This document shows positions 4,793 through 36,618 of a stretch of 53,480 nucleotides of DNA, one piece after another. The stretch is from a virus (taxonomy: Duplodnaviria > Caudoviricetes). Positions within the stretch are counted from its first letter, which is position 1. Each line of letters starts with the position of its first letter. Location of the stretch: the IMG/VR virus record IMGVR_UViG_3300047557_000938, positions 1-53,480 of that record; one strand, written 5' to 3'. A program made the position numbers and the translations under genes. The notes beneath the pieces are model-generated. The model was given only the letters and a program-made list of their open reading frames with translations, was not told the DNA's origin and did not search any database.

Positions 4793-5155
4793 ATGAGCAA
4801 GTACACAATCATGGCGCCGGGTGCGTGGTGCACGGACATTGAACCCGCCATGGAAGATCGCATGAATGAACTTGAAAAGGGGACTGCGTACGAACACAGC
4901 ATTGAAGTGACTCAACAGTTTCACGACCCGTCAAGAGTTCTGCGACGCGGCAAAGGGACACAGCACCGATTCGACTTGTCATCCCTCGAGGCTGTCGCGT
5001 TCTTGCGAGGCGAGGCCGAATACAGATGGGACTGGAATCTCGACACCATGAAGGAGGCCGACGGCCCCGAGGACCGCGAGTATCGGAGACGGAATGCCCA
5101 GGCCGCGAAGAAGTTGATGGATCGTTGCGACGCGATCTTGAAGGCACAGTCATAA
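4793..5155 (+). CDS. Hypothetical protein, paralog of 37964-38317
   Basis: Shared EKGT, GxGT, FLxGEAxYR and AAxxLMxxC motifs. Confidence 0.75.
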   Translation: MSKYTIMAPGAWCTDIEPAMEDRMNELEKGTAYEHSIEVTQQFHDPSRVLRRGKGTQHRFDLSSLEAVAFLRGEAEYRWDWNLDTMKEADGPEDREYRRRNAQAAKKLMDRCDAILKAQS

Positions 5156-5394
5156 TGACCATCGATGGGATCGGCTCGGCTCGCAGACTGTTCGACGGTC
5201 GCTGCCAGGAGTTCGACGGCACCTACTGGGCATGGCCCGTGGATGGGTATTGGGATCTTCATCACGCGGAGAGAGGCGTTCAGCCAGACGGCTCCGATGT
5301 GATTGAGGAAGGCTTGCCGTCACTTGCGGCGGCGCGTGCGGCGGCTCGGGAGCGCCGAGACTTCTATGGTTGGCTCAACAAGTTGGAGGGGTGA
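5155..5394 (+). CDS. Hypothetical protein
   Basis: TAATG coupling; MTIDGIG start. Confidence 0.55.
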   Translation: MTIDGIGSARRLFDGRCQEFDGTYWAWPVDGYWDLHHAERGVQPDGSDVIEEGLPSLAAARAAARERRDFYGWLNKLEG

Positions 5395-5573
5395 TGGGGA
5401 TCAGGGGCAAGTGTGTGTGGTGTGAAGGAAAGGCTGATCGTTTATGGCACACCCGTTGCGGGCCAGAGGCCATGTGTGGGCCATGTGCCGAGACGCGCGC
5501 GATTGCGGCGCTTGCTGAGTTGGCGCGGCATCGTGAGAAAGAGTTGAGGGATCAGGGAAGGGAGGGGTCGTGA
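5394..5573 (+). CDS. Small Cys-rich (zinc-finger-like) protein
   Basis: CVWC...CGPC; GGAGGGG RBS; TGATG coupling. Confidence 0.55.
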   Translation: MGIRGKCVWCEGKADRLWHTRCGPEAMCGPCAETRAIAALAELARHREKELRDQGREGS

Positions 5574-5833
5574 TTGTTGAGATGATTGACGGGCAGACGT
5601 TCGTGTCGCCTGAGGTGGCTGAGGATGTGTCGGACGAGATGCTGACCTTGGCTGAGCAAGTGTGCGACGGGTACTTCGACGACGATGAACGAATCGACTG
5701 GGAGGAGTTCATTGACCGCATGTGTAAAGAGGGCTACTTGGATGACGGGACACGCCTTGAGTTCCAGGAGTATGACAACCCGGCGATCTCCAAGATCAAA
5801 CGACACGTTCGGAACTACAGGAGTGCATCATGA
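5570..5833 (+). CDS. Acidic hypothetical protein
   Basis: GGAGGGG RBS, GTGA overlap. Confidence 0.6.
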   Translation: MIVEMIDGQTFVSPEVAEDVSDEMLTLAEQVCDGYFDDDERIDWEEFIDRMCKEGYLDDGTRLEFQEYDNPAISKIKRHVRNYRSAS

Positions 5834-20751: not shown

Positions 20752-21414
20752 GTGAGGGTTGCTCTTATCACCGCGTGTTACGGGTCTTACGATCCTGTTC
20801 GGGAACTGCCTGAGGGCGTGGGCTTCGACGAGGCGATCTGTGTCACGGATGATGCGAGTCTAGTAACAGAGTCTTGGCGGGTCGTGGTGGAGCCCCGTGA
20901 CGAGCATCCGAGGTTGGCGGCGAAGCGTCCGAAGATGATGCCGTGGTTGTTCACGGACTGCGATGCGGCGATATGGTTGGATGCCTCGTTTGAAGTGACG
21001 TCTCGGCAGTTCGGTGTGTGGGCGCGCGGGCATCTGGAGCGGAACGATTTCATTGTGTGGACTCACCCTGAGGGTAGATTCGGGATCGAGCAGGAAGCGC
21101 CTGTCTGCTGGGATTGGCCCAAGTACAAGGACTTCGATATGCGGGGGCAACTAGCGGCGTACATGGCTGATGGGATGCCGGAGCGTTGGGGACTGTTCGC
21201 GTGCGGCATGATCGGATGGGTATTCAACGATGCCACGAGGGCTCTTGGTGAGGCTTGGTATCGGGAGAATGTTGAGTGGAGTATCCAGGATCAGATAAGT
21301 CTGCCTTATCTCTTGTGGCGGGAGGGTAAGAAGTTCGGGGTGTGGACCGCGAACGAGTATCAGAACCCGTATCTGCGGCTTAGATGGGATGAGCGACCGA
21401 ATCCTCAGTTGTAG
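20752..21414 (+). CDS. DUF616-like glycosyltransferase
   Basis: TACYGSYD, CVTD, IWLDAS, HP.R, QDQISLPYLLW. Confidence 0.75.
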   Translation: MRVALITACYGSYDPVRELPEGVGFDEAICVTDDASLVTESWRVVVEPRDEHPRLAAKRPKMMPWLFTDCDAAIWLDASFEVTSRQFGVWARGHLERNDFIVWTHPEGRFGIEQEAPVCWDWPKYKDFDMRGQLAAYMADGMPERWGLFACGMIGWVFNDATRALGEAWYRENVEWSIQDQISLPYLLWREGKKFGVWTANEYQNPYLRLRWDERPNPQL

Positions 21415-22097
21415 CGTTGCGCTCCTTCTTGTCGACCAAGATTAGGCCATAGTTCCTCGTCCCGCATGGCGTGACCCCAGAAATGTGCCGCGACCGTTTC
21501 CTCGAAAATAACAGGTTGTTGGTTGGGCATGAACGGGTTGCAGTAGCGGGACGTCCACACTTCGACGTGATCAAACTGTTCTTTCTTGACTGCGGTGAGT
21601 AGTTTCGGGCCGGTCACCCAGTCCATGCTTCGCCCCTCGGCGCGATGTACCGACTCTGGGATTGCTTCAATAACAGCGGTCATGAGTGGGTGTTGAGGGA
21701 CCGCTGCCATGAAGGCGTTGGAGATTAGCCACCCATCTACTTCGTAGGCCAGGAGGGCTTCGCGGTCACAGAAGTCGGTCGGCAGGGCGCGTATCGGTTT
21801 CATGTCGCAGTTGAGGTAGAGGCCGCCTTCGTTGTAAAGGATCTCGTAGGCTGCGATGTCGGCTTGCGTGACTTGGATCATGGTCGCTTCCTTAGCGTCA
21901 CCTCGCGCCGGTGTCCATGTGACCCCACAGGAATCGAACTCGGCTTGATTCTGCAGAGGCGGAAGATCTTCGTATCCCCAGTCGCGTAGTTCCCAGCCCG
22001 GGTTGAGGGCTATCCATTCCTCACCGAACCGCCGATACAAGTCCGGCATGGGTCGGGGGCCGAACCAGATGCGGTGCATCAGTTTGGGGATCGCCAC
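21405..22097 (-). CDS. GT32 (OCH1-like, DXD-type) glycosyltransferase
   Basis: IPKLMHRIWFG, ADIAAYEILYNEGGLYLNCD, NAFMAA...HP, TGPKLLT; AAGGAG RBS before GTG 22097. Confidence 0.85.
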   Translation of the reverse strand: MAIPKLMHRIWFGPRPMPDLYRRFGEEWIALNPGWELRDWGYEDLPPLQNQAEFDSCGVTWTPARGDAKEATMIQVTQADIAAYEILYNEGGLYLNCDMKPIRALPTDFCDREALLAYEVDGWLISNAFMAAVPQHPLMTAVIEAIPESVHRAEGRSMDWVTGPKLLTAVKKEQFDHVEVWTSRYCNPFMPNQQPVIFEETVAAHFWGHAMRDEELWPNLGRQEGAQRYN

Positions 22098-23092
22098 GTC
22101 ACTCCTTCGTTGTCCTTGAACCACTGGACCGTTTCGCTGATTCCTTGGTCGAGGGGCGTGAAACTGTTCGGATCGATGCCGATCACTTTTAGGGTGCTTG
22201 TGTCGGCTGACACGACGGTGCCGAGTTGCTTGACGGTGCGCCTGACGTCGATGGGCCGGAGTTCTGGGGCGGCGGATAGTACGGCCTTGACAACGGCGTC
22301 GACGGCTTGTGGGGTGGCGAGTGGGCCTCCCTCGGGTTCGCCGGGGCGCATCGGGACGGCTTCGATGATTGCCCCACCGACGGCGCTAGACACGGCTTGT
22401 GCGACTTCGAGGACCGTGTGTGGCATGGGGTTGCCTACGTCAATGGGGTAGTCGGGAATGATGCCTTGATTGGCGGCTTCGAGTGCGGCGACGAAGCAGC
22501 GAGCCACGTCTCGAACGTGGACGGAGTCGCTGTATTGAACACCGCCGCCGTAGAGCCTCATGGGATCTCCTGAGAGGGCTGAGCAGACAAACGATGGAAC
22601 GATTTTGCGGACCTTAGAGGGCCCGTAGGGGGCCGGGGCTGACTGGCGTGGCCCGTAGGCGTTCATGGGCCGTACGGCCACGATTCGGGCTCCTCGGTCC
22701 TCCCTGTACATGCCGACGAACTGCTCCCCCGTCGTTTTCGTTATGCAGTAGGTGCCTCGGCCGATACCTGAGTTCCCTACGGCGGCGAACACGCAGGGCA
22801 GGTCGTAGCGGGCTGCCGCCTCGAACACGTTGAGGGTGCCGACGATGTTGGTTTCTGCTGCGGGGCCGGGGTTGTCGATGGTCTCGGCGGTCCCGAGGAC
22901 TGCCGCGAGGTGGATGATGCCGTCGACGTGTGCGGCGAGTTCTTGCACGATTGTGGTGTCCCGTACGTCTCCGTAGAGGCCCCAGCCTTTACCGCGATGG
23001 TCGAGGACGAGTGCCTCGTGGCCTTTGGCTTCGAGTTCCGCTAGTACCCACGATCCGATGAAGCCGTGTCCACCGGTTACGCCAATCTTCAT
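22079..23092 (-). CDS. NAD-dependent nucleotide-sugar epimerase/dehydratase
   Basis: VTGGHGFIG, HLAA, YCITK (YxxxK), RPMNAYGP, VHVRDVA. Confidence 0.9.
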   Translation of the reverse strand: MKIGVTGGHGFIGSWVLAELEAKGHEALVLDHRGKGWGLYGDVRDTTIVQELAAHVDGIIHLAAVLGTAETIDNPGPAAETNIVGTLNVFEAAARYDLPCVFAAVGNSGIGRGTYCITKTTGEQFVGMYREDRGARIVAVRPMNAYGPRQSAPAPYGPSKVRKIVPSFVCSALSGDPMRLYGGGVQYSDSVHVRDVARCFVAALEAANQGIIPDYPIDVGNPMPHTVLEVAQAVSSAVGGAIIEAVPMRPGEPEGGPLATPQAVDAVVKAVLSAAPELRPIDVRRTVKQLGTVVSADTSTLKVIGIDPNSFTPLDQGISETVQWFKDNEGVTWRSPN

Positions 23093-23733
23093 TTGAGACT
23101 CCTCACGACTGCTCGCCAATATCCTTCATCAACGCCCAGGCTTATGTTGTGATCGGCGAGACGATAAATGTAGTCGGCTTGCTGACTCGCTGTGAAGCGG
23201 GCTTGTTGTTTGGCGCAGCCGATCCAGAACGCCCAGTCCTCGAAGAGCATGTCGCGGAAGGGGTTCCCGTGCCAGAGCCACTTGCGAAATGGGGAGCCAG
23301 AGAAGACAAGATTGTTCTCCACATCAAGAACGTCTTGATGCCTGAAGTCGGAGGGCAGAAGGTTGTAGGCGCCTTGCGGGCTATTGACTTGGATGCCGAA
23401 CATGAGTATGTCGGCGTCTTCGGGTAGATGATTGAAGGCGTGGGGTAGAAGTAGATCGTCCACGTCCATCTTGCATATCCACTCGGTGTCGCAGGCTTGG
23501 ATAGCCTCATTGACGAGAACTTGCGGGTGATGGCTGAACGTTGTGGTGGAGCGGATTACGGTTCCGCTGCACGGCATGTCTTTCACCATACTAAGAAGGT
23601 CACTTGTTATCAGTTCGGTGACTATCCCATAACAGTCGGGTGCGGTTTCAAGCCGAGCGGCGGCCTCGATCCATTCCGGCAGAAAGGCTCTGTATGTGTC
23701 GCCGTGGACGACGGTGACGAGCCCGATGCTCAC
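23089..23733 (-). CDS. GT-A (GT2-like) glycosyltransferase
   Basis: NEAIQACDTEWICKMDVDD and FEDWAFW motifs. Confidence 0.75.
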   Translation of the reverse strand: MSIGLVTVVHGDTYRAFLPEWIEAAARLETAPDCYGIVTELITSDLLSMVKDMPCSGTVIRSTTTFSHHPQVLVNEAIQACDTEWICKMDVDDLLLPHAFNHLPEDADILMFGIQVNSPQGAYNLLPSDFRHQDVLDVENNLVFSGSPFRKWLWHGNPFRDMLFEDWAFWIGCAKQQARFTASQQADYIYRLADHNISLGVDEGYWRAVVRSLK

Positions 23734-30384: not shown

Positions 30385-30610
30385 ACCGTTGAGGGTGCCA
30401 AACGAGTACGAGCGTGCTCAGTTAGACATCGTGAAGGACATAAACGAAACAATCATAAAGAACATTGAACGGAATAAGGCTCTCTCCAAGGATCGCCGCG
30501 AGCGAGTCCTCTCCCTCCTGGCTGAAGGCTGGTCGATGTACGGCATCGCTCTAGAAACAGGCATCACCCCCAACACCGTGAAGAGAATCGTGGAGTCCAA
30601 GCATGAGTGA
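30377..30610 (+). CDS. Small HTH protein
   Basis: GWSMYGIALETGITPNTVKRI. Confidence 0.7.
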   Translation: MPRPLRVPNEYERAQLDIVKDINETIIKNIERNKALSKDRRERVLSLLAEGWSMYGIALETGITPNTVKRIVESKHE

Positions 30611-31412
30611 CGCACTCGAGATTGAAATGATCCCATTGAAAGACGTTCGACTGGACCCGAAGAATGCACGCTCCCACTCCGAGCGAAACCTAGAGGCGAT
30701 AATGGAGTCGCTGCGCCAGTTCGGTCAGCGCAAGCCCATCGTGGTCACTCACGACGGGATGGTCGTCGCCGGCAACGGGACCGTGGAAGCGGCACAAAAT
30801 CTAGGCTGGACTCAAATCTCCGCCACGCGTATCCCCGACGACTGGTCGCGGCAGCAGATCACCGCCTACGCGATTGCAGACAATCGAACTGCTGAACTCG
30901 CATCATGGGACTCCGAGATCCTCGTTCCAGCACTCGCCGAACTTGAAGCGGCTGGAATGTTGGAGTGGACAGGCTTCACTCAATACGAGTTGCAGAACTG
31001 GGACTCGCTGGCTCTGCGAGGAGGCCTGCCAGGTGGCGACTCCAGGTTAGACAACGACGAAGAGATTGACCCTGACGAGGAGCAAGGATCACTACTCGCA
31101 CTTGCGGATGTGACAGTTGCAGAGCCGAAACATGAAGTAGCGCAGCATGACATATTCATGCTCACTATGCCGAAGCATGATGTGACGCATGTCTTGATCG
31201 TTGCAAACGTGATGAAGGAATGGACCCTCTGGGCTGACTACTTACAAGGCGAAGCGATCTTCGTTCCCTTCCCTGATCCATTCATCACTGGAACGGACGT
31301 GGCTCGCAAACAGCCTCTTGTTTTAGTGCAACCCGATTACTACATGGCGGGTCATGTCCTCGACAAGCACGCCGCCTTCTATGGTGAAGAGCACGTAACG
31401 AGGATGCCGTGA
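30603..31412 (+). CDS. ParB/Srx-like N-terminal domain protein heading the DNA-modification operon
   Basis: PKNARSH, FGQRKPIVV, AGNG..EAA, IADNRTAELASWD. Confidence 0.8.
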   Translation: MSDALEIEMIPLKDVRLDPKNARSHSERNLEAIMESLRQFGQRKPIVVTHDGMVVAGNGTVEAAQNLGWTQISATRIPDDWSRQQITAYAIADNRTAELASWDSEILVPALAELEAAGMLEWTGFTQYELQNWDSLALRGGLPGGDSRLDNDEEIDPDEEQGSLLALADVTVAEPKHEVAQHDIFMLTMPKHDVTHVLIVANVMKEWTLWADYLQGEAIFVPFPDPFITGTDVARKQPLVLVQPDYYMAGHVLDKHAAFYGEEHVTRMP

Positions 31413-32308
31413 AGAAGAAGAACACAGGAGGCGGGACGTTCGACAAGAACGAGCAACCCGTCTACTTCATCGCGTCCGGCCCCACGCAACTAGAGATCGC
31501 GCAAGAGATCACCGACCATCTGCTTGTTGCCGTAAACGAGTTGGAATCCCCAAAAGCAATCGAACAGTTCGACAAGATGCTCGACACGGGAGCAAAGGTG
31601 TTTCTGGACTCCGGCATCTTCAACTTGACCAACAGGCACATGCGTGCCCACGGCATCACCATGGACGAAGCCCTAGCACTCGCGCCAGACGAGATTGACG
31701 GCTTCGACAAACTGTGGGACAACTACTGCGAGATTGTGACCCGATTCGCCAATCGCGTGTGGGGCTTCATCGAACTTGACCAAGGTGGAGCGATCAACAA
31801 ACGCAAGACTCGAGCGCGTATCGAAAAAGAAACAGGGTTGATTCCTGTTCCCGTCTATCATCCACTCAACGACGGCTGGGACTACTTCAATGAACTCGCA
31901 AAAGAATATGATCGGATCTGTTGCGGCAACGTCGTGCAGGCGAATCAAGCCACACGCAAGCGGTTGATTACAACCTTGTATGAACGGCAAAGACAGGATC
32001 ATCCCGATACTTGGATTCATTTCTTGGGCTTCACTCCGAACGAGTGGGTTCATGCGGCGCCGTTCTACGGCTCTTGCGACTCGTCCTCCTGGCTCGTGAA
32101 TGTCCGATGGTCCAGGGCGCATCGAAGTCAAGGAGCGTGCAAGCGGGTCGGTGGGTTCGTGTACGGCATGAGATACAAGTACGGCAGCGACTACACGGAC
32201 GACAACGGTTACGAGAGGGCTATCCGTTTCGCGGGAGCGCAAGGCGGCTGGTTCTTGGAGAAGTCTTGGAAGGCATACATGAACGAGAGGGAAGAGGTGT
32301 TCGGATGA
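31409..32308 (+). CDS. dpdA: DpdA-like DNA guanine transglycosylase (TGT fold)
   Basis: FLDSG.F, ELD, PVYH, IHFLG, CDSSSW motifs; coupled to Que genes. Confidence 0.7.
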   Translation: MKKKNTGGGTFDKNEQPVYFIASGPTQLEIAQEITDHLLVAVNELESPKAIEQFDKMLDTGAKVFLDSGIFNLTNRHMRAHGITMDEALALAPDEIDGFDKLWDNYCEIVTRFANRVWGFIELDQGGAINKRKTRARIEKETGLIPVPVYHPLNDGWDYFNELAKEYDRICCGNVVQANQATRKRLITTLYERQRQDHPDTWIHFLGFTPNEWVHAAPFYGSCDSSSWLVNVRWSRAHRSQGACKRVGGFVYGMRYKYGSDYTDDNGYERAIRFAGAQGGWFLEKSWKAYMNEREEVFG

Positions 32309-32649
32309 CGGAAGTGTGGTGCACCTTCGAGAAGGTCGGGTTCCATCATTGGCCCGACGCGGCGGACATTCTTCCCCGTCGAGCGTATCTGTCGGATCGT
32401 CACAGGCATCTGTTCAAGATGCGGATCACCGTGCCCGTACTGCACGACGACCGCGACATTGAGTTTCATGAACTGCGCGACTACGCCGAGGAGTGGTGGC
32501 CCGAAGGCGGCGAGATGGGTTCCATGAGTTGCGAGGCAATAGCGCAATCGCTCGGGGCTCACATCATGGACGGGTTCCACATTCCGTGGGTTGAAGTTGA
32601 AGTGTCAGAAGACGGCGAGTGTGGAGCAAGCGTTAGGATGGAAACATGA
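32305..32649 (+). CDS. dpdL: QueD-like T-fold protein, predicted CDG decarboxylase (DpdL-like)
   Basis: GFHHWP, LSDRHRHLF (LxxxHRHxF), DRDIEF, SCE, VSEDGE.G; ATGA overlap start. Confidence 0.7.
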   Translation: MTEVWCTFEKVGFHHWPDAADILPRRAYLSDRHRHLFKMRITVPVLHDDRDIEFHELRDYAEEWWPEGGEMGSMSCEAIAQSLGAHIMDGFHIPWVEVEVSEDGECGASVRMET

Positions 32650-33014
32650 CGTTCAGGATCAGTAAAGAGTTCTCATTCTCGTCATCGCATCAACTCCACG
32701 GGCTTAGAGAAGGCCACCCATGCGGTCGCGTTCACGGTCACAACTACGTCGTGAAGGTCACCCTGTCGGGTGAGAAGTTGAACGGCAGCGGGTTCCTGTT
32801 GGACTACAACGACTTGAAGCCTTTCGGTCACTGGCTGGACGACGAGTTGGATCATCGCCACTTGAACGACGTTCTCAACTTTCAACCCTCAGCCGAGAAC
32901 ATGGCGCAATACTTCGCCTTCATGGTGGAGAACACGGTGAACGTTCCCGAGGGAGTGAACATCAGCGTGTCCGTGTCGGAGACTCCTAAGACCTGGGCGA
33001 CCTGGGAGAACTGA
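32646..33014 (+). CDS. queD: 6-carboxy-5,6,7,8-tetrahydropterin synthase
   Basis: CGRVHGHNY, LDHRHLND, PSAEN, VSETP. Confidence 0.92.
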   Translation: MTFRISKEFSFSSSHQLHGLREGHPCGRVHGHNYVVKVTLSGEKLNGSGFLLDYNDLKPFGHWLDDELDHRHLNDVLNFQPSAENMAQYFAFMVENTVNVPEGVNISVSVSETPKTWATWEN

Positions 33015-33736
33015 TGAACATGGCGGAAGAGATCGCCGAACTGAAACTCGTTCTAGATGTGAATGAGATATTCGGCCCCACCGTACAAGGCGAAGGCCCA
33101 TCGACGGGTGTTCGCTGCGCGTTCCTTCGACTGTCCGGCTGCAACCTCACTTGCGTATGGTGCGACACCCCGTACACGTGGGACTGGAAAGGTCAAAACG
33201 GCACGCCGTACTCCAAGGAAGCCGAAACGCACCCCATGTCGGTCCACGACGTATGGTTTCAACTAACCGGCTACGGTGTTCCCTTGTATGTCATCTCGGG
33301 CGGTGAACCCATGATGCAGCAGGAGGCTCTAGGAGCGTTGATCCCCCGACTCATGGCTGGCGGCAAACAAGTCGAGGTGGAAACGAATGGAACAATCAAG
33401 CCGAAGATCGAGCCCACCCGATTCAACGTGTCACCGAAACTCACTCACTCGGGAGTGCGCGAGAAGATCAGATTCAAGCCCGAAACGTTGAACGCCTACG
33501 TCGGTCGCTCCATTTTCAAGTTTGTGTGTCAGACAGTGAAAGACCTGGACGAAGTGATGTTCATGGCAGCCGAAGCCGACATACCCGACAGCGCGATTTG
33601 GATCATGCCCGAAGGACGCGACCCCGTAACACTCATGTCTCACGCCGAGGCGATCACGGACGAAGCGATCGCTCGAGGCTGGAACATCACAGGCCGACTT
33701 CACGTGATGACGTGGGGCGCAAGGAGAGGTGTATGA
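33014..33736 (+). CDS. queE: 7-carboxy-7-deazaguanine synthase (radical SAM)
   Basis: [34 protein letters not shown]. Confidence 0.93.
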
Positions 33737-34605
33737 AACTCACATGGCAAGACATTGAGATCGAAGCCCGCAATCTGGCGAAGCGCTGGGCGGGTCGCTC
33801 CTTCTCAGGTGTCTACGGCGTGCCGCAAGGTGGAGTGCCCGTCGCGTTGATCGTGTCGGACCTTCTTGATCTGCCTATTCTTGACGAGCCAGACATTCAC
33901 GCCTTGATCGTGGATGATCTAGTGGACTCAGGTCGCACCCTCTCTAGATACAACCAGGCGTGCGACGCCCTGTATCGGAAGCCCCATTCACCGAATCATC
34001 TCGCTGTTGGAGCGACCGAGGTGGACGAGTGGTTGATCTTCCCGTGGGAGAAAGACGACGGCGATCCGAACGAGATCGTTGTGCGGCTCCTGGAGTACGT
34101 GGGTGAAGACCCGACTCGGGAAGGACTCTTGGACACACCGAAGCGAGTGTTGAAGGCGTTCCGTGAAATGACAGAGGGGTACAAGAAAGACCCCGGCGAG
34201 ATTCTCTCCACTGTGTTCAACGAGGACTTCGATCAGATGGTGTGCCTTCACAACATCGAGTTCGTGTCCATGTGCGAGCACCACTTGCAGCCGTTCCGTG
34301 GAACAGCCGCCGTCGGCTACATACCCAACGGGCAGGTCGTGGGTCTATCCAAGTTGGCTCGCCTCGTAGACGCCTACGCTCGCCGCCTTCAAGTGCAGGA
34401 ACGCATGACGGAGCAGATCGCTGCTGCAATGAACGAGCATCTTGCGCCCGCAGGAGTCGCCGTCTACATTGAAGCGCATCACTCCTGCATGGGTAACCGT
34501 GGTGTTCGCAAGCATGAAGGCCGCATGGTTACACAGAAACTGACGGGGCTCATGAAGGATGATGCCGCCGCACGCGCCGAGTTCATGGGGCTAGTTCAGA
34601 AATAG
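33733..34605 (+). CDS. folE: Phosphoribosyltransferase-GTP cyclohydrolase I fusion
   Basis: N-term [25 protein letters not shown] (Gpt-like); C-term [33 protein letters not shown]. Confidence 0.9.
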
Positions 34606-34613
34606 GAGCATAG

Positions 34614-35084
34614 ATGACTGGCAAGAAGCCAGGGCGCAAGCCGCCGAAGGTCACAGATCAAAAGGTTCAAGACTTGATCAAAGCCTTGGAGTACGGCAAC
34701 TACATGGACGTGGCGTGCAAGATCGCTGGCGTCGGTGTGACGAGCGTGTATCGCTGGCTGAATGAAGGCGCGGAAGAAGCCAACAGGATCGCCGCAGGAC
34801 TGGAACCCGACTCCGATCGCGCCACATACATCGAGGTCATGCAGGCTATCGAGAAGGCTCGGAGCGAGGCCGAGGCTAGAAACGTGGCAATCATTCAACG
34901 CACCGCGCAGGAAGGCACATGGCAGGCGGCTGCCTGGTGGTTGGAGCGCACGCGACCCAACAAGTGGGGCCGTTATGTGCGCACGGAGGCTACGGCTCCC
35001 GAGGACACTAGCGTTGAGATGACAGTGAACGACGACGATTTGGAGTCCCTCGTGAATCGCATCCTGGGCGATGACTCTGATTGA
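34614..35084 (+). CDS. terS: Terminase small subunit
   Basis: HTH (ACKIAGV..TSVYRW), WQAAAWWLER; directly before TerL. Confidence 0.8.
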   Translation: MTGKKPGRKPPKVTDQKVQDLIKALEYGNYMDVACKIAGVGVTSVYRWLNEGAEEANRIAAGLEPDSDRATYIEVMQAIEKARSEAEARNVAIIQRTAQEGTWQAAAWWLERTRPNKWGRYVRTEATAPEDTSVEMTVNDDDLESLVNRILGDDSD

Positions 35085-36618
35085 CCGTGTTCTCGCCGCT
35101 GACCCAACGAAGCGGAAGGAACTCTACGAGGCCCTAACGCCGCAACGAAAGCAAGAACTTGCCTCGCTCCTGCTTGCTCGAGCGGACGACCGATGGGCGC
35201 GATACGCGAACGATCCCGTGTCCTTCGTTACTGAGGGTCTTGGCGAACAAGTGTGGTCTAAGCAGATACAAATCTTGGAGTCTCTGCGGGATAACAAACG
35301 CACCGCTGTTCCTGCTTGCCACGCTCCAGGGAAGTCGCACATAGCGGCCCGTGCGATTGCTTGGTGGGTGACTGTTCACCCGCCTGAGACTGTCCGTGTG
35401 GTCACGACCGCTACAACCTTCCGGCAAGTGAAGGGCATCTTGTGGCCTCACATTCGACGGCTCCACGCTGCACATGACTTGCCCGGTGAAGTTCACACAA
35501 CGGAGTGGAAGATCGACGACATAATCATCGCCGATGGTTTCTCCCCTGCTGATCATAACGAGGCGGCTGTTCAAGGTATCCACGCAGAAAATCTGCTCAT
35601 TGTTGTGGACGAGGCGGGCGGTATCTCCGACACCATCGGTCAAGCATTAGAAGCACTCATGACAGGTAGACATACACGGCTTCTGCTGCTTGGTAACCCA
35701 CCTACTGATCGCATGGGTTCATGGTTCGAGCGCGCCTGTTCTTCTGGGCTCTACAACGTGATCTCTATTGCAGCCGAAAGCACACCGAACTTCACCGGGG
35801 AGAAGATTGGGCCGTGGTCACGAAACCTTGTTGATCAGACCTGGGTTGATGAAGTCACTCGCACATTCGGGGAGGACTCACCGTTCGTTCAAGCAAGAGT
35901 CCATGCACGATTCCCCAGAACCGTAGCCAACGCGGTGATACCCATCGACTGGATCGAACGCTCACAAGACCTGGAGAGTGAACCCGGTCCCGTGCGTCTA
36001 GGTGTGGACGTTGCCGCCGATGGTGGAGACGAGTTCGTGATCGCCGAGGTGGACGGCTGGACGGCACGGATCGTGCATGCGAGCAGACATAACGCAAGCC
36101 CTGTTGAGGTAGCGGGACGGGTACTAGAAGCAATCAAGAAGGCTGAAGCCAAGCACGCGACCCGAGGCATCAACCAGCCCGTGCGAGTCAAGATCGACTC
36201 GATAGGTGTCGGCTGGGGAGTGGCTGGTCTACTCGAAGAATGGGGCTTGGAAGGTAGACACAACAGTGAAGTGTGGGCTGTGAACGTAGCGCAGGCAGCC
36301 TATGATCGAGATCAGTTCGCCAATCAACGAGCCGAGATGTGGTGGACGGCTCGGGAACTTCTTCAACCCAACGAAGAGGGTGAGCAAGAACTTGCCCTTG
36401 AAGTGGATCATCAGACGGCGGCTCAACTCGCGGCGCCCTCATATCGGTCCAACAGCACAGGCCGGCTGCAGATCGAATCCAAGGACGAGATGCGGAAACG
36501 AGGTGTCGGCTCCCCCGACCGCGCCGAAGCCATTCTTCTAGCCTTGTTTGAGCCACCTAGACACGAGATTCCAGCCGTGGCTCCCCTGAGCATCACCGGG
36601 CAGAACTCGTGGATCTAG
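35071..36618 (+). CDS. terL: Terminase large subunit
   Basis: Walker A HAPGKS, Walker B IVVDEA, GNP, nuclease GVDVA and SPDRAEA. Confidence 0.93.
   Translation: MTLIDRVLAADPTKRKELYEALTPQRKQELASLLLARADDRWARYANDPVSFVTEGLGEQVWSKQIQILESLRDNKRTAVPACHAPGKSHIAARAIAWWVTVHPPETVRVVTTATTFRQVKGILWPHIRRLHAAHDLPGEVHTTEWKIDDIIIADGFSPADHNEAAVQGIHAENLLIVVDEAGGISDTIGQALEALMTGRHTRLLLLGNPPTDRMGSWFERACSSGLYNVISIAAESTPNFTGEKIGPWSRNLVDQTWVDEVTRTFGEDSPFVQARVHARFPRTVANAVIPIDWIERSQDLESEPGPVRLGVDVAADGGDEFVIAEVDGWTARIVHASRHNASPVEVAGRVLEAIKKAEAKHATRGINQPVRVKIDSIGVGWGVAGLLEEWGLEGRHNSEVWAVNVAQAAYDRDQFANQRAEMWWTARELLQPNEEGEQELALEVDHQTAAQLAAPSYRSNSTGRLQIESKDEMRKRGVGSPDRAEAILLALFEPPRHEIPAVAPLSITGQNSWI

What the first reader, a model, noticed from the sequence alone, without database searches (positions are those of the whole stretch)
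33733..34605. Phosphoribosyltransferase fused to GTP cyclohydrolase I
Seen: about 105 N-terminal residues with PRPP motif [12 protein letters not shown] and Gpt-like WLIFPWE, in frame with intact FolE. A PRTase is not part of the deazaguanine pathway as I know it. Inference A: it recycles guanine excised by DpdA back to GMP and GTP, closing a loop into FolE. Inference B: it ribosylates the deazapurine for nucleotide-level incorporation. The domain is compact and may be regulatory.
Basis: partly seen in the sequence, partly recalled or inferred. Interest (0 to 1): 0.75.

Follow-up and report, generated by a model that had tools for sequence, protein, structure and literature searches.

The report
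Compact guanine-type phosphoribosyltransferase fused to FolE
A phage gene joins a stripped-down purine phosphoribosyltransferase to GTP cyclohydrolase I inside its 7-deazaguanine DNA-modification operon, and this enzyme pair, fused or side by side, recurs in many phages that make such DNA although its role has not been tested.

Summary
Window 33733-34605 (+) is one 290-aa ORF. It has a ~110-aa N-terminal domain with the fold and ligand-site residues of E. coli xanthine-guanine phosphoribosyltransferase (XGPRT/Gpt). This domain lacks the catalytic flexible loop. It is joined by a short linker to a canonical FolE.

The ORF ends a dpdA-dpdL-queD-queE operon in a complete 53.5-kb phage genome that has no queC, so the predicted DNA modification is 2'-deoxy-7-deazaguanine.

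The fusion is not a read error:
- All 80 related viral contigs examined carry it, as do cultured Queuovirinae phages, where it is annotated only as FolE.
- Stand-alone compact PRT genes sit next to a separate folE in 45 of 80 further viral loci.
- Homologous PRT genes occur in phiST, immuto_2-6A and CP220, the three phages reported as fully guanine-substituted.

The PRT site residues do not change with the end-product gene (QueC or DpdL).

Ranked readings:
- Best (about 0.45): a guanine/xanthine PRTase that removes guanine released by DpdA and returns it to the GTP pool for FolE.
- Rival: a purine or PRPP sensor that regulates FolE.
- Rival: a TubE-like PRTase that acts on a deazapurine.

No searched paper discusses this. 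It is a new variant of a known kind and is directly testable.

The parts
33733..34605 (+). PRT-FolE fusion ORF, 290 aa plus stop
   Evidence: Translation without a stop. Aligned over its full length with 33 fused homologues. Full-length model has pLDDT 95.1.
33721..33729 (+). Shine-Dalgarno-like AAGGAGAGG, 3 nt upstream of the ATG. The ATG overlaps the queE stop (ATGA).
   Evidence: Read directly from the sequence.
33733..34062 (+). Compact XGPRT-like phosphoribosyltransferase domain (residues 1-110)
   Evidence: NF006613 E 7e-11 and phrog_8995 E 8.5e-11. PDB phmmer hits to GpT-2 4z1o and to Gpt. Model pLDDT 96.3. Foldseek top hits are XGPRT structures and the phiST PRTase in BFVD.
33904..33939 (+). 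PRPP/5'-phosphate-binding loop [12 protein letters not shown] (residues 58-69)
   Evidence: D61, D62, D65, G67 and T69 are invariant in 34 fused proteins and in 68 of 68 fused viral domains. They align with Gpt D88, D89, D92, G94 and T96.
33979..33981 (+). Lys83 codon, aligned with Gpt Lys115
   Evidence: Invariant in alignment A1. K in 60 of 68 fused viral domains.
34030..34050 (+). WLIFPWE (residues 100-106). Trp100 aligns with Gpt Trp134.
   Evidence: W100 is conserved in 68 of 68 domains.
34078..34596 (+). GTP cyclohydrolase I (FolE) domain, residues 116-288
   Evidence: PF01227 at 238.9 bits. TIGR00063 at 223.2 bits. Foldseek matches human, T. thermophilus and M. tuberculosis GCH1 with TM(target) about 0.9.
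33014..33736 (+). QueE (7-carboxy-7-deazaguanine synthase), immediately upstream
   Evidence: Radical SAM/Fer4_12 hits. Family HMM hits in 76 of 80 related loci.
32646..33014 (+). QueD (CPH4 synthase)
   Evidence: PF01242 E 1.1e-31.
32305..32649 (+). DpdL-like QueD paralogue (proposed CDG decarboxylase). Its ATG overlaps the dpdA stop.
   Evidence: LSDRHRHLF fits the LxxxHRHxF signature given in PMC10516641. phrog_17812 E 1.2e-25.
31409..32308 (+). DpdA (DNA guanine transglycosylase), DpdA1-like
   Evidence: phrog_887 E 1.5e-23. Nearest cultured relatives are the DpdA of Queuovirinae phages. Only 38 residues align with the DpdA3 of immuto.

Best explanation
The gene encodes a bifunctional protein. 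Its C-terminal part is a normal GTP cyclohydrolase I. This is the first enzyme of the 7-deazaguanine pathway, which runs GTP -> H2NTP -> CPH4 -> CDG -> (DpdL) 7-deazaguanine and ends with DpdA inserting the base into DNA.

Its N-terminal part is a minimised XGPRT-type 6-oxopurine phosphoribosyltransferase.

Proposed mechanism (inferred, not shown):
1. Each DpdA base exchange releases one free guanine.
2. The PRT domain condenses that guanine with PRPP to give GMP.
3. Host guanylate kinase and nucleoside-diphosphate kinase return GMP to GTP, the FolE substrate.

This would do two things. It removes a product that competes with the deazaguanine base for the DpdA-DNA intermediate. It also balances the pathway one to one: one GTP is consumed for each guanine released.

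Fusion or adjacency to folE would keep the two activities co-expressed. Loss of flexible loop II may additionally make the phage enzyme insensitive to (p)ppGpp, which inhibits host HPRT/XGPRT. That last point is speculative.
For: Shown here:

1. Fold and sequence are XGPRT-like.

2. Residues aligned with Gpt D88/D89, D92, T93-G94-x-T96, K115 and W134 are kept. They are invariant in 34 fused homologues and in 68 of 68 fused viral domains. From memory of the XGPRT structures, not from a call, these are the ribose/Mg site, the catalytic Asp, the 5'-phosphate loop, the O6 contact and the purine stack.

3. There is a conserved link with folE:
- 42 of 42 near-length homologues of the N-domain carry PF01227.
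- 80 of 80 viral loci found with the fused query are fused.
- Of 80 loci found with stand-alone PRTs, 4 are fused, 45 have folE within 150 bp (31 FolE>PRT, 14 PRT>FolE), 14 have it farther off and 17 show none.

4. The pathway context is constant. QueE is in 76, QueD in 75 and DpdA in 63 of 80 fused loci.

5. The ligand is probably common to all variants:
- QueC (46 loci) and DpdL (16 loci) alternate. The label changes 12 times on the PRT-domain tree, which has 13 DpdL tips.
- The site residues are the same in both groups.

6. The family grades from full-length XPRTs beside folE to loop-less forms. Examples are Brevundimonas phage MaInes (161 aa, PF00156 52 bits) and the loop-bearing phiST PRT.

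7. The FolE domain keeps the motifs of a GTP-using enzyme, so it needs GTP.

8. The phage shows no polymerase, RNR or nucleotide kinase among the 20 ORFs scanned. A nucleotide-pool route would therefore rest wholly on the host.

My own estimate:
- The genome has about 30,500 G:C pairs (GC 0.571 x 53,480).
- I assume 25-30% replacement, the upper range for DpdA1 in PMC10516641.
- I also assume a burst of 100 and a 1 fL cell.
- This gives roughly 1 mM guanine released, and as much GTP consumed.
Against: - No activity or binding was tested.
- The domain lacks loop II (Gpt residues 62-83). [quoted passage not shown]
- The Arg aligned with Gpt Arg37 is Gln in the window and variable in its clade: R in 36, T in 10 and Q in 9 of 68 domains.
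- The domain scores below the curated cut-offs of PF00156 (21.5 against 26.3) and NF006613 (41.9 against 138).
- GMP is three steps away from the FolE reaction, so the fusion gives no direct channelling.
- Hosts normally have their own Hpt or Gpt.
- Many deazaguanine phages, such as the Escherichia Queuovirinae and the Mycobacterium phages matched only over FolE, manage without this domain.
- CDG is also common to all variants, so point 5 above does not exclude a CDG-specific enzyme.
Confidence: 0.45

Rival explanations
1. Regulatory sensor. The loop-less PRT domain no longer catalyses. It binds a purine or phosphoribosyl ligand (guanine, GMP, PRPP, (p)ppGpp or CDG) and tunes the attached FolE decamer. 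This would be analogous to PRT-fold regulators (PurR, PyrR) or to GFRP control of animal GTP cyclohydrolase I.
For: - Loop II, said to cover the active site during catalysis (PMC6783271), is absent.
- The Arg37 equivalent is relaxed in the window's clade.
- The partner is always FolE, the committing enzyme, whichever the gene order.
- The linker to the first FolE helix is only about 6 residues, and the two-domain model has pTM 0.80.
- A Gpt-like protein with bound ppGpp (5vog) is among the fold matches.
- PurR, PyrR and GFRP are recalled precedents, not results from a call.
Against: - The acidic PRPP/Mg residues and the Asp aligned with the catalytic Asp are strictly kept: 68 of 68, and invariant or at least 90% in 71 stand-alone proteins. 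This fits catalysis as well as binding.
- Most family members are separate small proteins (119 of the 150 listed representatives).
- Full-length XPRT forms occupy the same position beside folE.
- No interdomain interface could be examined.
Confidence: 0.2
2. Deazapurine PRTase. The domain phosphoribosylates CDG or another 7-deazaguanine base, as TubE does. This would feed a nucleotide-level route, or give DpdL a nucleotide substrate.
For: - TubE is a CDG-specific PRTase encoded with FolE, QueD and QueE homologues in a pathway that lacks QueC (PMC6112128 passages; bioRxiv 10.64898/2026.04.15.718813 passages).
- Homologous PRT genes are in the genomes of phiST, immuto_2-6A and CP220. PMC10516641 reports these as completely substituted.
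- DpdA3-like genes lie in 33 of 80 stand-alone-PRT loci.
- The same paper reports an ADG nucleoside in CP220-infected cells. [quoted passage not shown]
- In phiST the PRT gene lies two genes upstream of the ribonucleotide reductase large subunit.
Against: - A DpdA is found in 63 of 80 fused loci, and base exchange needs the free base.
- The window's DpdA is DpdA1-like.
- No kinase, RNR or polymerase was found among the 20 window ORFs scanned.
- PRT site residues do not differ between QueC and DpdL clusters, so the final base is unlikely to be the substrate. CDG remains possible.
- The Asp aligned with Gpt D92, recalled as acting on purine N7, is invariant although 7-deazapurines have no N7.
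- TubE did not accept deazaguanine.
Confidence: 0.2
3. Inert or purely structural appendage, for example an oligomerisation or solubility tag derived from a decayed PRTase.
For: The domain is shortened and below family thresholds. Many deazaguanine phages lack it.
Against: - The ligand-site residues are invariant across distant hosts, with mean column identity only 54% in the fused set and 26% with stand-alone forms.
- 1731 cluster representatives match the domain.
- Stand-alone genes are maintained next to folE.
Confidence: 0.05
4. Assembly or sequencing artefact that joins two genes.
For: None found.
Against: 80 of 80 independent viral contigs, 42 of 42 database homologues and cultured phage genomes have the same continuous frame.
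Confidence: 0.01

Closest known systems
E. coli xanthine-guanine phosphoribosyltransferase (Gpt/XGPRT; PDB 1A95, 1NUL, 4JLS) and Y. pestis XGPRT (6KP5)
   Same: Best structural matches, with Foldseek E 1.6e-8 and TM(query) about 0.8. The PRPP loop and the residues aligned with D88, D89, D92, T93, G94, T96, K115 and W134 are kept.
   Different: - Gpt residues 62-83 (flexible loop II) and the C-terminal tail 141-152 have no counterpart.
- Arg37 is Gln.
- 110 aa against 152 aa.
- Fused to FolE.
- Below the curated family cut-offs.
Stand-alone phage 'phosphoribosyl transferase' genes: Flavobacterium phage immuto_2-6A gp211, Cellulophaga phage phiST gp064, Campylobacter phage CP220
   Same: Same family (tblastn; phiST is the best BFVD fold match). 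immuto gp211 lies directly upstream of folE in the queD-queE-...-dpdA cluster.
   Different: - They are separate genes.
- phiST keeps a loop at the loop II position.
- The phiST and CP220 genes are not near folE.
- These phages carry DpdA3, not DpdA1-like enzymes.
PRT-FolE genes of cultured Queuovirinae phages (Pseudomonas PaMx25/NP1 group, Vibrio 1.207.B/VpKK5, Xanthomonas, Stenotrophomonas, Sphingomonas phages)
   Same: Same two-domain architecture (297 and 307 aa) and the same place in a que/dpdA cluster. 34 of 405 phage records with a FolE match cover residues 58-289.
   Different: - About 46-48% identity.
- Their clusters carry QueC or Gat-QueC instead of DpdL.
- They are annotated only as GTP cyclohydrolase.
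- In the PaMx25 RefSeq record the gene is split into a hypothetical gene and a short folE.
TubE (tubercidin) and ToyH (toyocamycin) PRTases of Streptomyces
   Same: PRTases encoded together with FolE, QueD and QueE homologues. TubE uses CDG plus PRPP in a QueC-less pathway (PMC6112128).
   Different: - 194-aa stand-alone enzymes in antibiotic gene clusters without DpdA.
- The product is a free nucleoside antibiotic.
PRT-fold regulators (B. subtilis PurR, PyrR) and GFRP control of animal GTP cyclohydrolase I (recalled, not from a call)
   Same: Precedents for a PRT fold used as a PRPP or nucleotide sensor, and for allosteric control of GTP cyclohydrolase I by a small partner. GCH1-GFRP complexes appear among the FolE fold matches.
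   Different: There is no sequence relation to GFRP. Nothing here shows regulation.

Membership tests
Type I phosphoribosyltransferase fold, 6-oxopurine (XGPRT-like) branch | Core PRT fold | tested here: met
   Model pLDDT 96.3. The Foldseek top hits are all purine PRTases, with XGPRT first (E 1.6e-8, TM about 0.8).
Type I phosphoribosyltransferase fold, 6-oxopurine (XGPRT-like) branch | PRPP-binding motif: hydrophobic strand, two acidic residues, then the D-[ST]-G-x-T phosphate loop | tested here: met
   [12 protein letters not shown] at residues 58-69. Invariant D61, D62, D65, G67 and T69. Aligned with Gpt 85-96.
Type I phosphoribosyltransferase fold, 6-oxopurine (XGPRT-like) branch | Flexible catalytic loop II that closes over the active site | tested here: not met
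   Gpt residues 62-83 have no counterpart. The role of the loop is taken from PMC6783271.
Type I phosphoribosyltransferase fold, 6-oxopurine (XGPRT-like) branch | PPi loop with basic residue (Gpt S-R37-G-G) | tested here: inconclusive
   The GG pair is kept (G33, G34). Arg is Gln32 in the window. It is R in 36 of 68 fused domains and in at least 90% of 71 stand-alone proteins.
Type I phosphoribosyltransferase fold, 6-oxopurine (XGPRT-like) branch | Purine contacts: Lys to O6 and a stacking aromatic residue (Gpt K115, W134; roles recalled) | tested here: met
   K83 and W100 align with K115 and W134. W is kept in 68 of 68 and K in 60 of 68 domains.
Type I phosphoribosyltransferase fold, 6-oxopurine (XGPRT-like) branch | Curated profile thresholds (Pfam PF00156; NCBIfam NF006613 xanthine PRTase) | tested here: not met
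   PF00156 scores 21.5 bits against 26.3. NF006613 scores 41.9 bits against 138.
Type I phosphoribosyltransferase fold, 6-oxopurine (XGPRT-like) branch | PRPP-dependent formation of GMP or XMP | not testable with these tools
   An enzyme assay is needed.
GTP cyclohydrolase I (FolE, type IA) | Curated profile thresholds | tested here: met
   PF01227 scores 238.9 bits against 27. TIGR00063 scores 223.2 against 181.6. NF006825 scores 245.6 against 174.
GTP cyclohydrolase I (FolE, type IA) | Zinc/catalytic motifs (CEHH ... HxC) and the basic/Ser residues for the GTP triphosphate. The mapping to E. coli residues is recalled. | tested here: met
   C181, E182, H183, H184, H250, C252, S206, K207, R210, Q222, E223, R256 and R138 are invariant in 34 homologues. 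The fold matches GCH1 structures with TM(target) about 0.9.
Phage 7-deazaguanine DNA-modification cluster (Dpd/Que) | DpdA together with FolE, QueD and QueE in one cluster | tested here: met
   Window genes lie at 31409-34605. No QueC is present in the complete 53,480-bp record. The DpdL signature is present.
TubE/ToyH deazapurine PRTases | Sequence relation to TubE/ToyH and CDG or preQ0 specificity | not tested
Only the papers' passages were read.

The most novel reading that the evidence does not exclude
The compact PRTase is the unrecognised extra enzyme of phage 7-deazaguanine DNA modification.

One version: it closes a guanine -> GMP -> GTP -> deazaguanine cycle that pulls DpdA exchange towards completion.

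Another version: like TubE, it phosphoribosylates CDG or deazaguanine, so that in some phages the modified base passes through the nucleotide pool.

Either version could explain why DpdL and DpdA3 could not be reconstituted in E. coli, and how phiST, immuto and CP220 replace every guanine.
Probability: 0.25. Interest if true: 0.85.

Novelty: new variant of a known kind. Interest (0 to 1): 0.62.

Why it matters
The published schemes for phage 7-deazaguanine DNA modification list FolE, QueD, QueE, QueC and its variants, DpdL/M/N and DpdA. 'Phosphoribosyl' occurs 0 times in the main texts of PMC6884629, PMC10516641 and PMC10484667.

Here a PRTase turns out to be a recurrent, conserved member of these clusters. 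It is fused to folE, adjacent to it, or at least present in the genome of the fully substituted phages.

If it recycles guanine, it shows how a phage balances the purine budget of a base-exchange modification and drives the exchange forward. If it acts on deazapurines, it reopens the question of whether all such modifications are made after replication. In both cases it names a concrete gene to add to the reconstitutions that failed.

It also defines a minimal, loop-less PRT scaffold of about 110 aa that is of interest for enzymology.

Practical by-product: the gene is under-annotated as plain FolE in cultured Queuovirinae genomes.

Tried and rejected
- Megablast of window 31000-36000 against cultured phages found no match.

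- Read error or frameshift is rejected.

- An altered FolE substrate such as GMP is rejected. The residues I recall as triphosphate ligands are invariant.

- Repeated independent fusions are not supported. The fewest fused/split changes on FastTree trees of the ~110-aa domain were:
  - 1 among 142 unique domains from loci;
  - 2 with 91 fused and 57 split rows of known context;
  - 8 when 82 strictly stand-alone representatives were added;
  - 21 with a looser definition that probably counts truncated fusions.
  These trees are short, unrooted and weakly resolved.

- Presence of the fusion in cellular genomes: the best 80 of 597 matches in one-genome-per-species contigs all start at query residue 71 or later, so they are FolE only or nearly so. 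Lower-ranked matches were not seen.

- Complex prediction on a natural split pair (FolE alignment A5 plus PRT alignment A4) gave the verdict 'no answer', score 0.00. This is no evidence either way.

- The 'FUSED' flags printed were an artefact, because my FolE profile still contained the PRT domain. One search repeated the count with domain-only profiles, and only those numbers are used.

- The DpdA counts in the stand-alone loci are lower bounds. The flanks were 6 kb and the profiles were home-made from the loci themselves.

- The Crippen et al. 2019 paper on CP220 is not held, so its content is cited only through PMC10516641.

- Supplementary files of all papers were closed. The gene tables in the supplements of PMC10516641 and PMC6884629 may list the PRT genes.

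- The claim 'not discussed in print' rests and on word searches in three main texts. Subscription journals were not covered.
Full report
**What is there.** Window 33733-34605 (+) is a single open frame of 290 codons.
- Its ATG overlaps the stop of the upstream queE (ATGA) and is preceded by AAGGAGAGG. A longer GTG-initiated frame from 33526 exists. The homologues start at or near the MKLTW position, so 33733 is the likely start.
- Residues 116-288 are an unambiguous GTP cyclohydrolase I: PF01227 at 238.9 bits and TIGR00063 at 223.2 bits, both far above their cut-offs. In the full-length model (pLDDT 95.1, pTM 0.80) this part superposes on human, Thermus and M. tuberculosis GCH1 with TM(target) about 0.9.
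- CEHH, HSC, GLSK, R210, QxQE and R256 are invariant in 34 homologues. From memory these are the zinc, guanine and triphosphate ligands, so the enzyme should use GTP.

**The N-terminal domain.**
- Profile hits name purine PRTases but stay under the curated thresholds: PF00156 21.5 against 26.3 bits, NF006613 xanthine PRTase E 7e-11, phrog_8995 E 8.5e-11.
- phmmer against PDB sequences finds S. solfataricus GpT-2 (E 8e-6) and E. coli and Yersinia XGPRT. These XGPRT alignments come in two blocks with a gap between them.
- A domain-only AlphaFold model built on 75 sequences has pLDDT 96.3. Its best PDB matches are E. coli XGPRT (4jls, 1a95, 1nul; E 1.6e-8, TM about 0.8), Y. pestis XGPRT, the P. 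horikoshii purine PRTase and S. solfataricus HGXPRT. In the viral library the best match is the 'phosphoribosyl transferase' of Cellulophaga phage phiST.
- I aligned the domain with E. coli K-12 Gpt, fetched. The pairs are D61/D62 = D88/D89, D65 = D92, S66 = T93, G67 = G94, T69 = T96, K83 = K115, W100 = W134, G33/G34 = G38/G39 and Q32 = R37.
- Gpt residues 62-83 and 141-152 have no counterpart. [quoted passage not shown]
- The domain is therefore a minimised XGPRT. It keeps the PRPP/5'-phosphate loop, the Asp I recall as catalytic, and the purine contacts. It lacks the lid.

**Context in the window.** The window is a complete viral record with terminal repeats (53,480 bp, completeness 100).
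- The gene closes a translationally coupled row:

| Gene | Coordinates |
|---|---|
| ParB-like | 30603-31412 |
| dpdA | 31409-32308 |
| dpdL-like | 32305-32649 |
| queD | 32646-33014 |
| queE | 33014-33736 |
| PRT-folE | 33733-34605 |

- The small and large terminase genes follow.
- The dpdL-like ORF carries LSDRHRHLF, which fits the LxxxHRHxF signature of PMC10516641.
- No QueC is present anywhere in the genome. By the logic of PMC10516641 the predicted product is therefore 2'-deoxy-7-deazaguanine.
- The DpdA is nearest to the DpdA of Queuovirinae phages, not to the DpdA3 of immuto.
- Twenty other ORFs were scanned. They gave Gam, Erf, a replication initiator, RusA, structural, lysis and glycosyltransferase genes, but no polymerase, ribonucleotide reductase or nucleotide kinase. 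Not every ORF was scanned.

**The fusion is real and conserved.**
- A word-indexed search with residues 1-112 returned 42 proteins of 284-311 aa (the query included), and all carry PF01227.
- In IMG/VR, the 80 best loci found with the fused alignment all have the continuous frame. With home-made profiles built from the loci themselves, QueE is present in 76, QueD in 75, DpdA in 63, QueC in 46, DpdL in 16, and neither QueC nor DpdL in 18. Many of those 18 are cut by a contig end.
- In cultured phages, 34 of 405 records with a FolE match cover residues 58-289.
- I checked two of them. PaMx25 has a 297-aa PRT-FolE ORF, which RefSeq splits into an out-of-frame hypothetical gene plus a 191-aa folE. 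Vibrio phage 1.207.B has a 307-aa one. Their clusters carry Gat-QueC or QueC.
- In one-genome-per-species bacterial and archaeal contigs, the 80 best matches are FolE only.

**A wider family of stand-alone compact PRTs.**
- An exhaustive profile-free search with the N-domain found 1731 cluster representatives at E <= 1e-3. Of the 150 listed, 23 are fused to FolE, 119 are small proteins made of little more than the domain, and 8 are other forms.
- I searched IMG/VR with an alignment of 71 stand-alone proteins and examined the 80 loci kept. Four are fused. In 59 a separate folE lies within 6 kb: 45 within 150 bp (31 in the order FolE>PRT, 14 PRT>FolE) and 14 farther away. In 17 no folE was found; several of these sit at contig ends and seven have other que genes.
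- A DpdA3-like gene, profiled from immuto, is in 33 of these 80 loci and in none of the fused set.
- tblastn with one stand-alone PRT against cultured phages found 22 records.
  - Flavobacterium phage immuto_2-6A is among them. Its PRT gene is directly upstream of folE in the que/dpdA/dpdN cluster.
  - Cellulophaga phages phiST, phi13:1 and phi19:2 also match. Their PRT gene lies beside RNase H and two genes before RNR, not near folE.
  - Campylobacter phages CP220 and CC_R7 match as well.
- PMC10516641 reports phiST, immuto_2-6A and CP220 as the completely substituted DpdA3 phages.
- The family also grades into full-length forms. Brevundimonas phage MaInes has a 161-aa XPRT (PF00156 52 bits) right after folE. 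The phiST protein keeps a loop where the window's domain has none.

**Does the PRT follow the end product?** It does not.
- On a FastTree of the fused PRT domains, the QueC/DpdL label changes 12 times with only 13 DpdL tips. Close relatives therefore swap the end-product gene while keeping PRT-FolE.
- D61, D62, D65, G67, T69 and W100 are identical in 13 of 13 DpdL-type, 44 of 44 QueC-type and 11 of 11 other domains.
- The ligand should thus be common to all variants. Candidates are guanine or xanthine, GMP, PRPP, or the shared intermediate CDG. It should not be the final base.
- The fused forms make up one or a few clades, with 1 to 8 state changes depending on sampling.

**Mechanism.** I rank guanine salvage first, at about 0.45.
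- DpdA exchange frees one guanine for each modified position, and FolE consumes one GTP for each deazaguanine made. An XGPRT-type enzyme links the two through GMP and host kinases. It also removes a base that should compete for the DpdA-DNA intermediate. The competition is an inference from what I recall of TGT enzymology.
- The genome has about 30,500 G:C pairs. If I assume 25-30% replacement, a burst of 100 and a 1 fL cell, the flux is of millimolar order.
- In PMC6783271 a dimeric loop II deletion of HPRT lost pppGpp binding. A loop-less phage enzyme might therefore escape alarmone inhibition. This is speculation.

Against this reading:
- the lid is missing;
- the Arg37 equivalent is not kept in the window;
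- no channelling is possible;
- hosts have their own enzymes;
- many deazaguanine phages lack the domain.

The rivals are these:
- A non-catalytic sensor that controls FolE (0.2). This best explains the exclusive partnership with FolE and the lost lid.
- A TubE-like deazapurine PRTase (0.2). It is supported by the TubE precedent (PMC6112128). It is also supported by the statements in PMC10516641 that an ADG nucleoside occurs in CP220-infected cells and that DpdL and DpdA3 could not be reconstituted.
- An inert appendage (0.05).
- An artefact (0.01).

**Comparison with what is known, and novelty.** Both domains belong to known superfamilies.
- The N-domain fails two tested membership features of XGPRT: loop II and the curated thresholds. 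I therefore call it XGPRT-like and do not file it as a Gpt orthologue.
- PRT genes are annotated in several of these phages, and the fusion lies unrecognised in GenBank records.
- No paper that I could search links a PRTase to phage DpdA clusters. 'Phosphoribosyl' occurs 0 times in the main texts of PMC6884629, PMC10516641 and PMC10484667. The four papers that hold both 'phosphoribosyl' and 'DpdA' do not concern this. Searches found nothing relevant.
- Supplements were closed and subscription journals are not covered.
- I rate the finding as a new variant of a known kind. Interest is moderately high because it adds a testable component to an active problem.

**Limits.**
- All functional statements are inferences from sequence, predicted structure and gene neighbourhood.
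- The family profiles were built from the loci being counted.
- The loci were chosen by similarity to my queries, so the fractions describe those samples, not all phages.
- The residue roles in XGPRT and FolE are recalled from the literature, not taken from a call.
- The search of earlier findings and the VIA-align libraries were unavailable.

Noticed in passing
L001 4772-5702 (Pseudomonas phage PaMx25, NC_041953.1): RefSeq annotates a 124-aa hypothetical gene (gp38, another frame) and a 191-aa folE (gp37). A single 297-aa ORF at 4809-5702 encodes the PRT-FolE fusion. Other cultured Queuovirinae records label the fusion simply as GTP cyclohydrolase.
   Followed up: partly
P0141 (571 aa): A PRT-FolE protein with an insertion of roughly 280 residues placed just before the CEHH motif of FolE. 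It looks like an intein or homing-endonuclease insertion at the catalytic cysteine.
   Followed up: no
L037-L042 and other fused loci: Closely related PRT-FolE genes sit in clusters that carry either dpdL or queC. The end-product module therefore seems to be swapped often between related phages (12 changes on the PRT tree).
   Followed up: partly
L023, L025, L057, L059, L068, L085: These clusters have DpdA, QueD, QueE and PRT-FolE and enough flank, but my profiles found neither QueC nor DpdL. They may stop at CDG or use an unrecognised tailoring enzyme.
   Followed up: no
P0065, P0071: Proteins of 255-277 aa with two tandem compact PRT-like domains. The second domain appears degenerate in the PRPP loop.
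   Followed up: no
L004 5043-6198 (Brevundimonas phage vB_BpoS-MaInes): folE is followed directly by a full-length XPRT (161 aa) beside ribonucleotide reductase and a dNMP kinase. My queries found no DpdA in the whole record, and my profiles found no QueD or QueE in the 12-kb locus. The FolE-PRT pair therefore also occurs outside recognisable deazaguanine clusters.
   Followed up: partly
Alignment A5 (split-type FolE of loci L090-L160): The folE genes that accompany stand-alone PRTs have CSHHH where the fused forms and classical FolE have CEHH. They also carry a longer N-terminus (about 230 aa in total).
   Followed up: no
window 31409-34605: Every junction of dpdA/dpdL/queD/queE/PRT-folE overlaps by 1 or 4 nt (ATGA type), which suggests translational coupling of the whole operon.
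   Followed up: no
window 20752-23733: Two glycosyltransferase-like ORFs and a nucleotide-sugar epimerase-like ORF lie here, three of the four ORFs on the minus strand. This may be a moron that modifies the host surface or a sugar.
   Followed up: no
L167 8001-12097 (Cellulophaga phage phiST): The phiST PRT gene, which retains a loop, lies between RNase H and the ribonucleotide reductase large subunit and far from the que genes. This placement would suit a role in nucleotide metabolism.
   Followed up: partly
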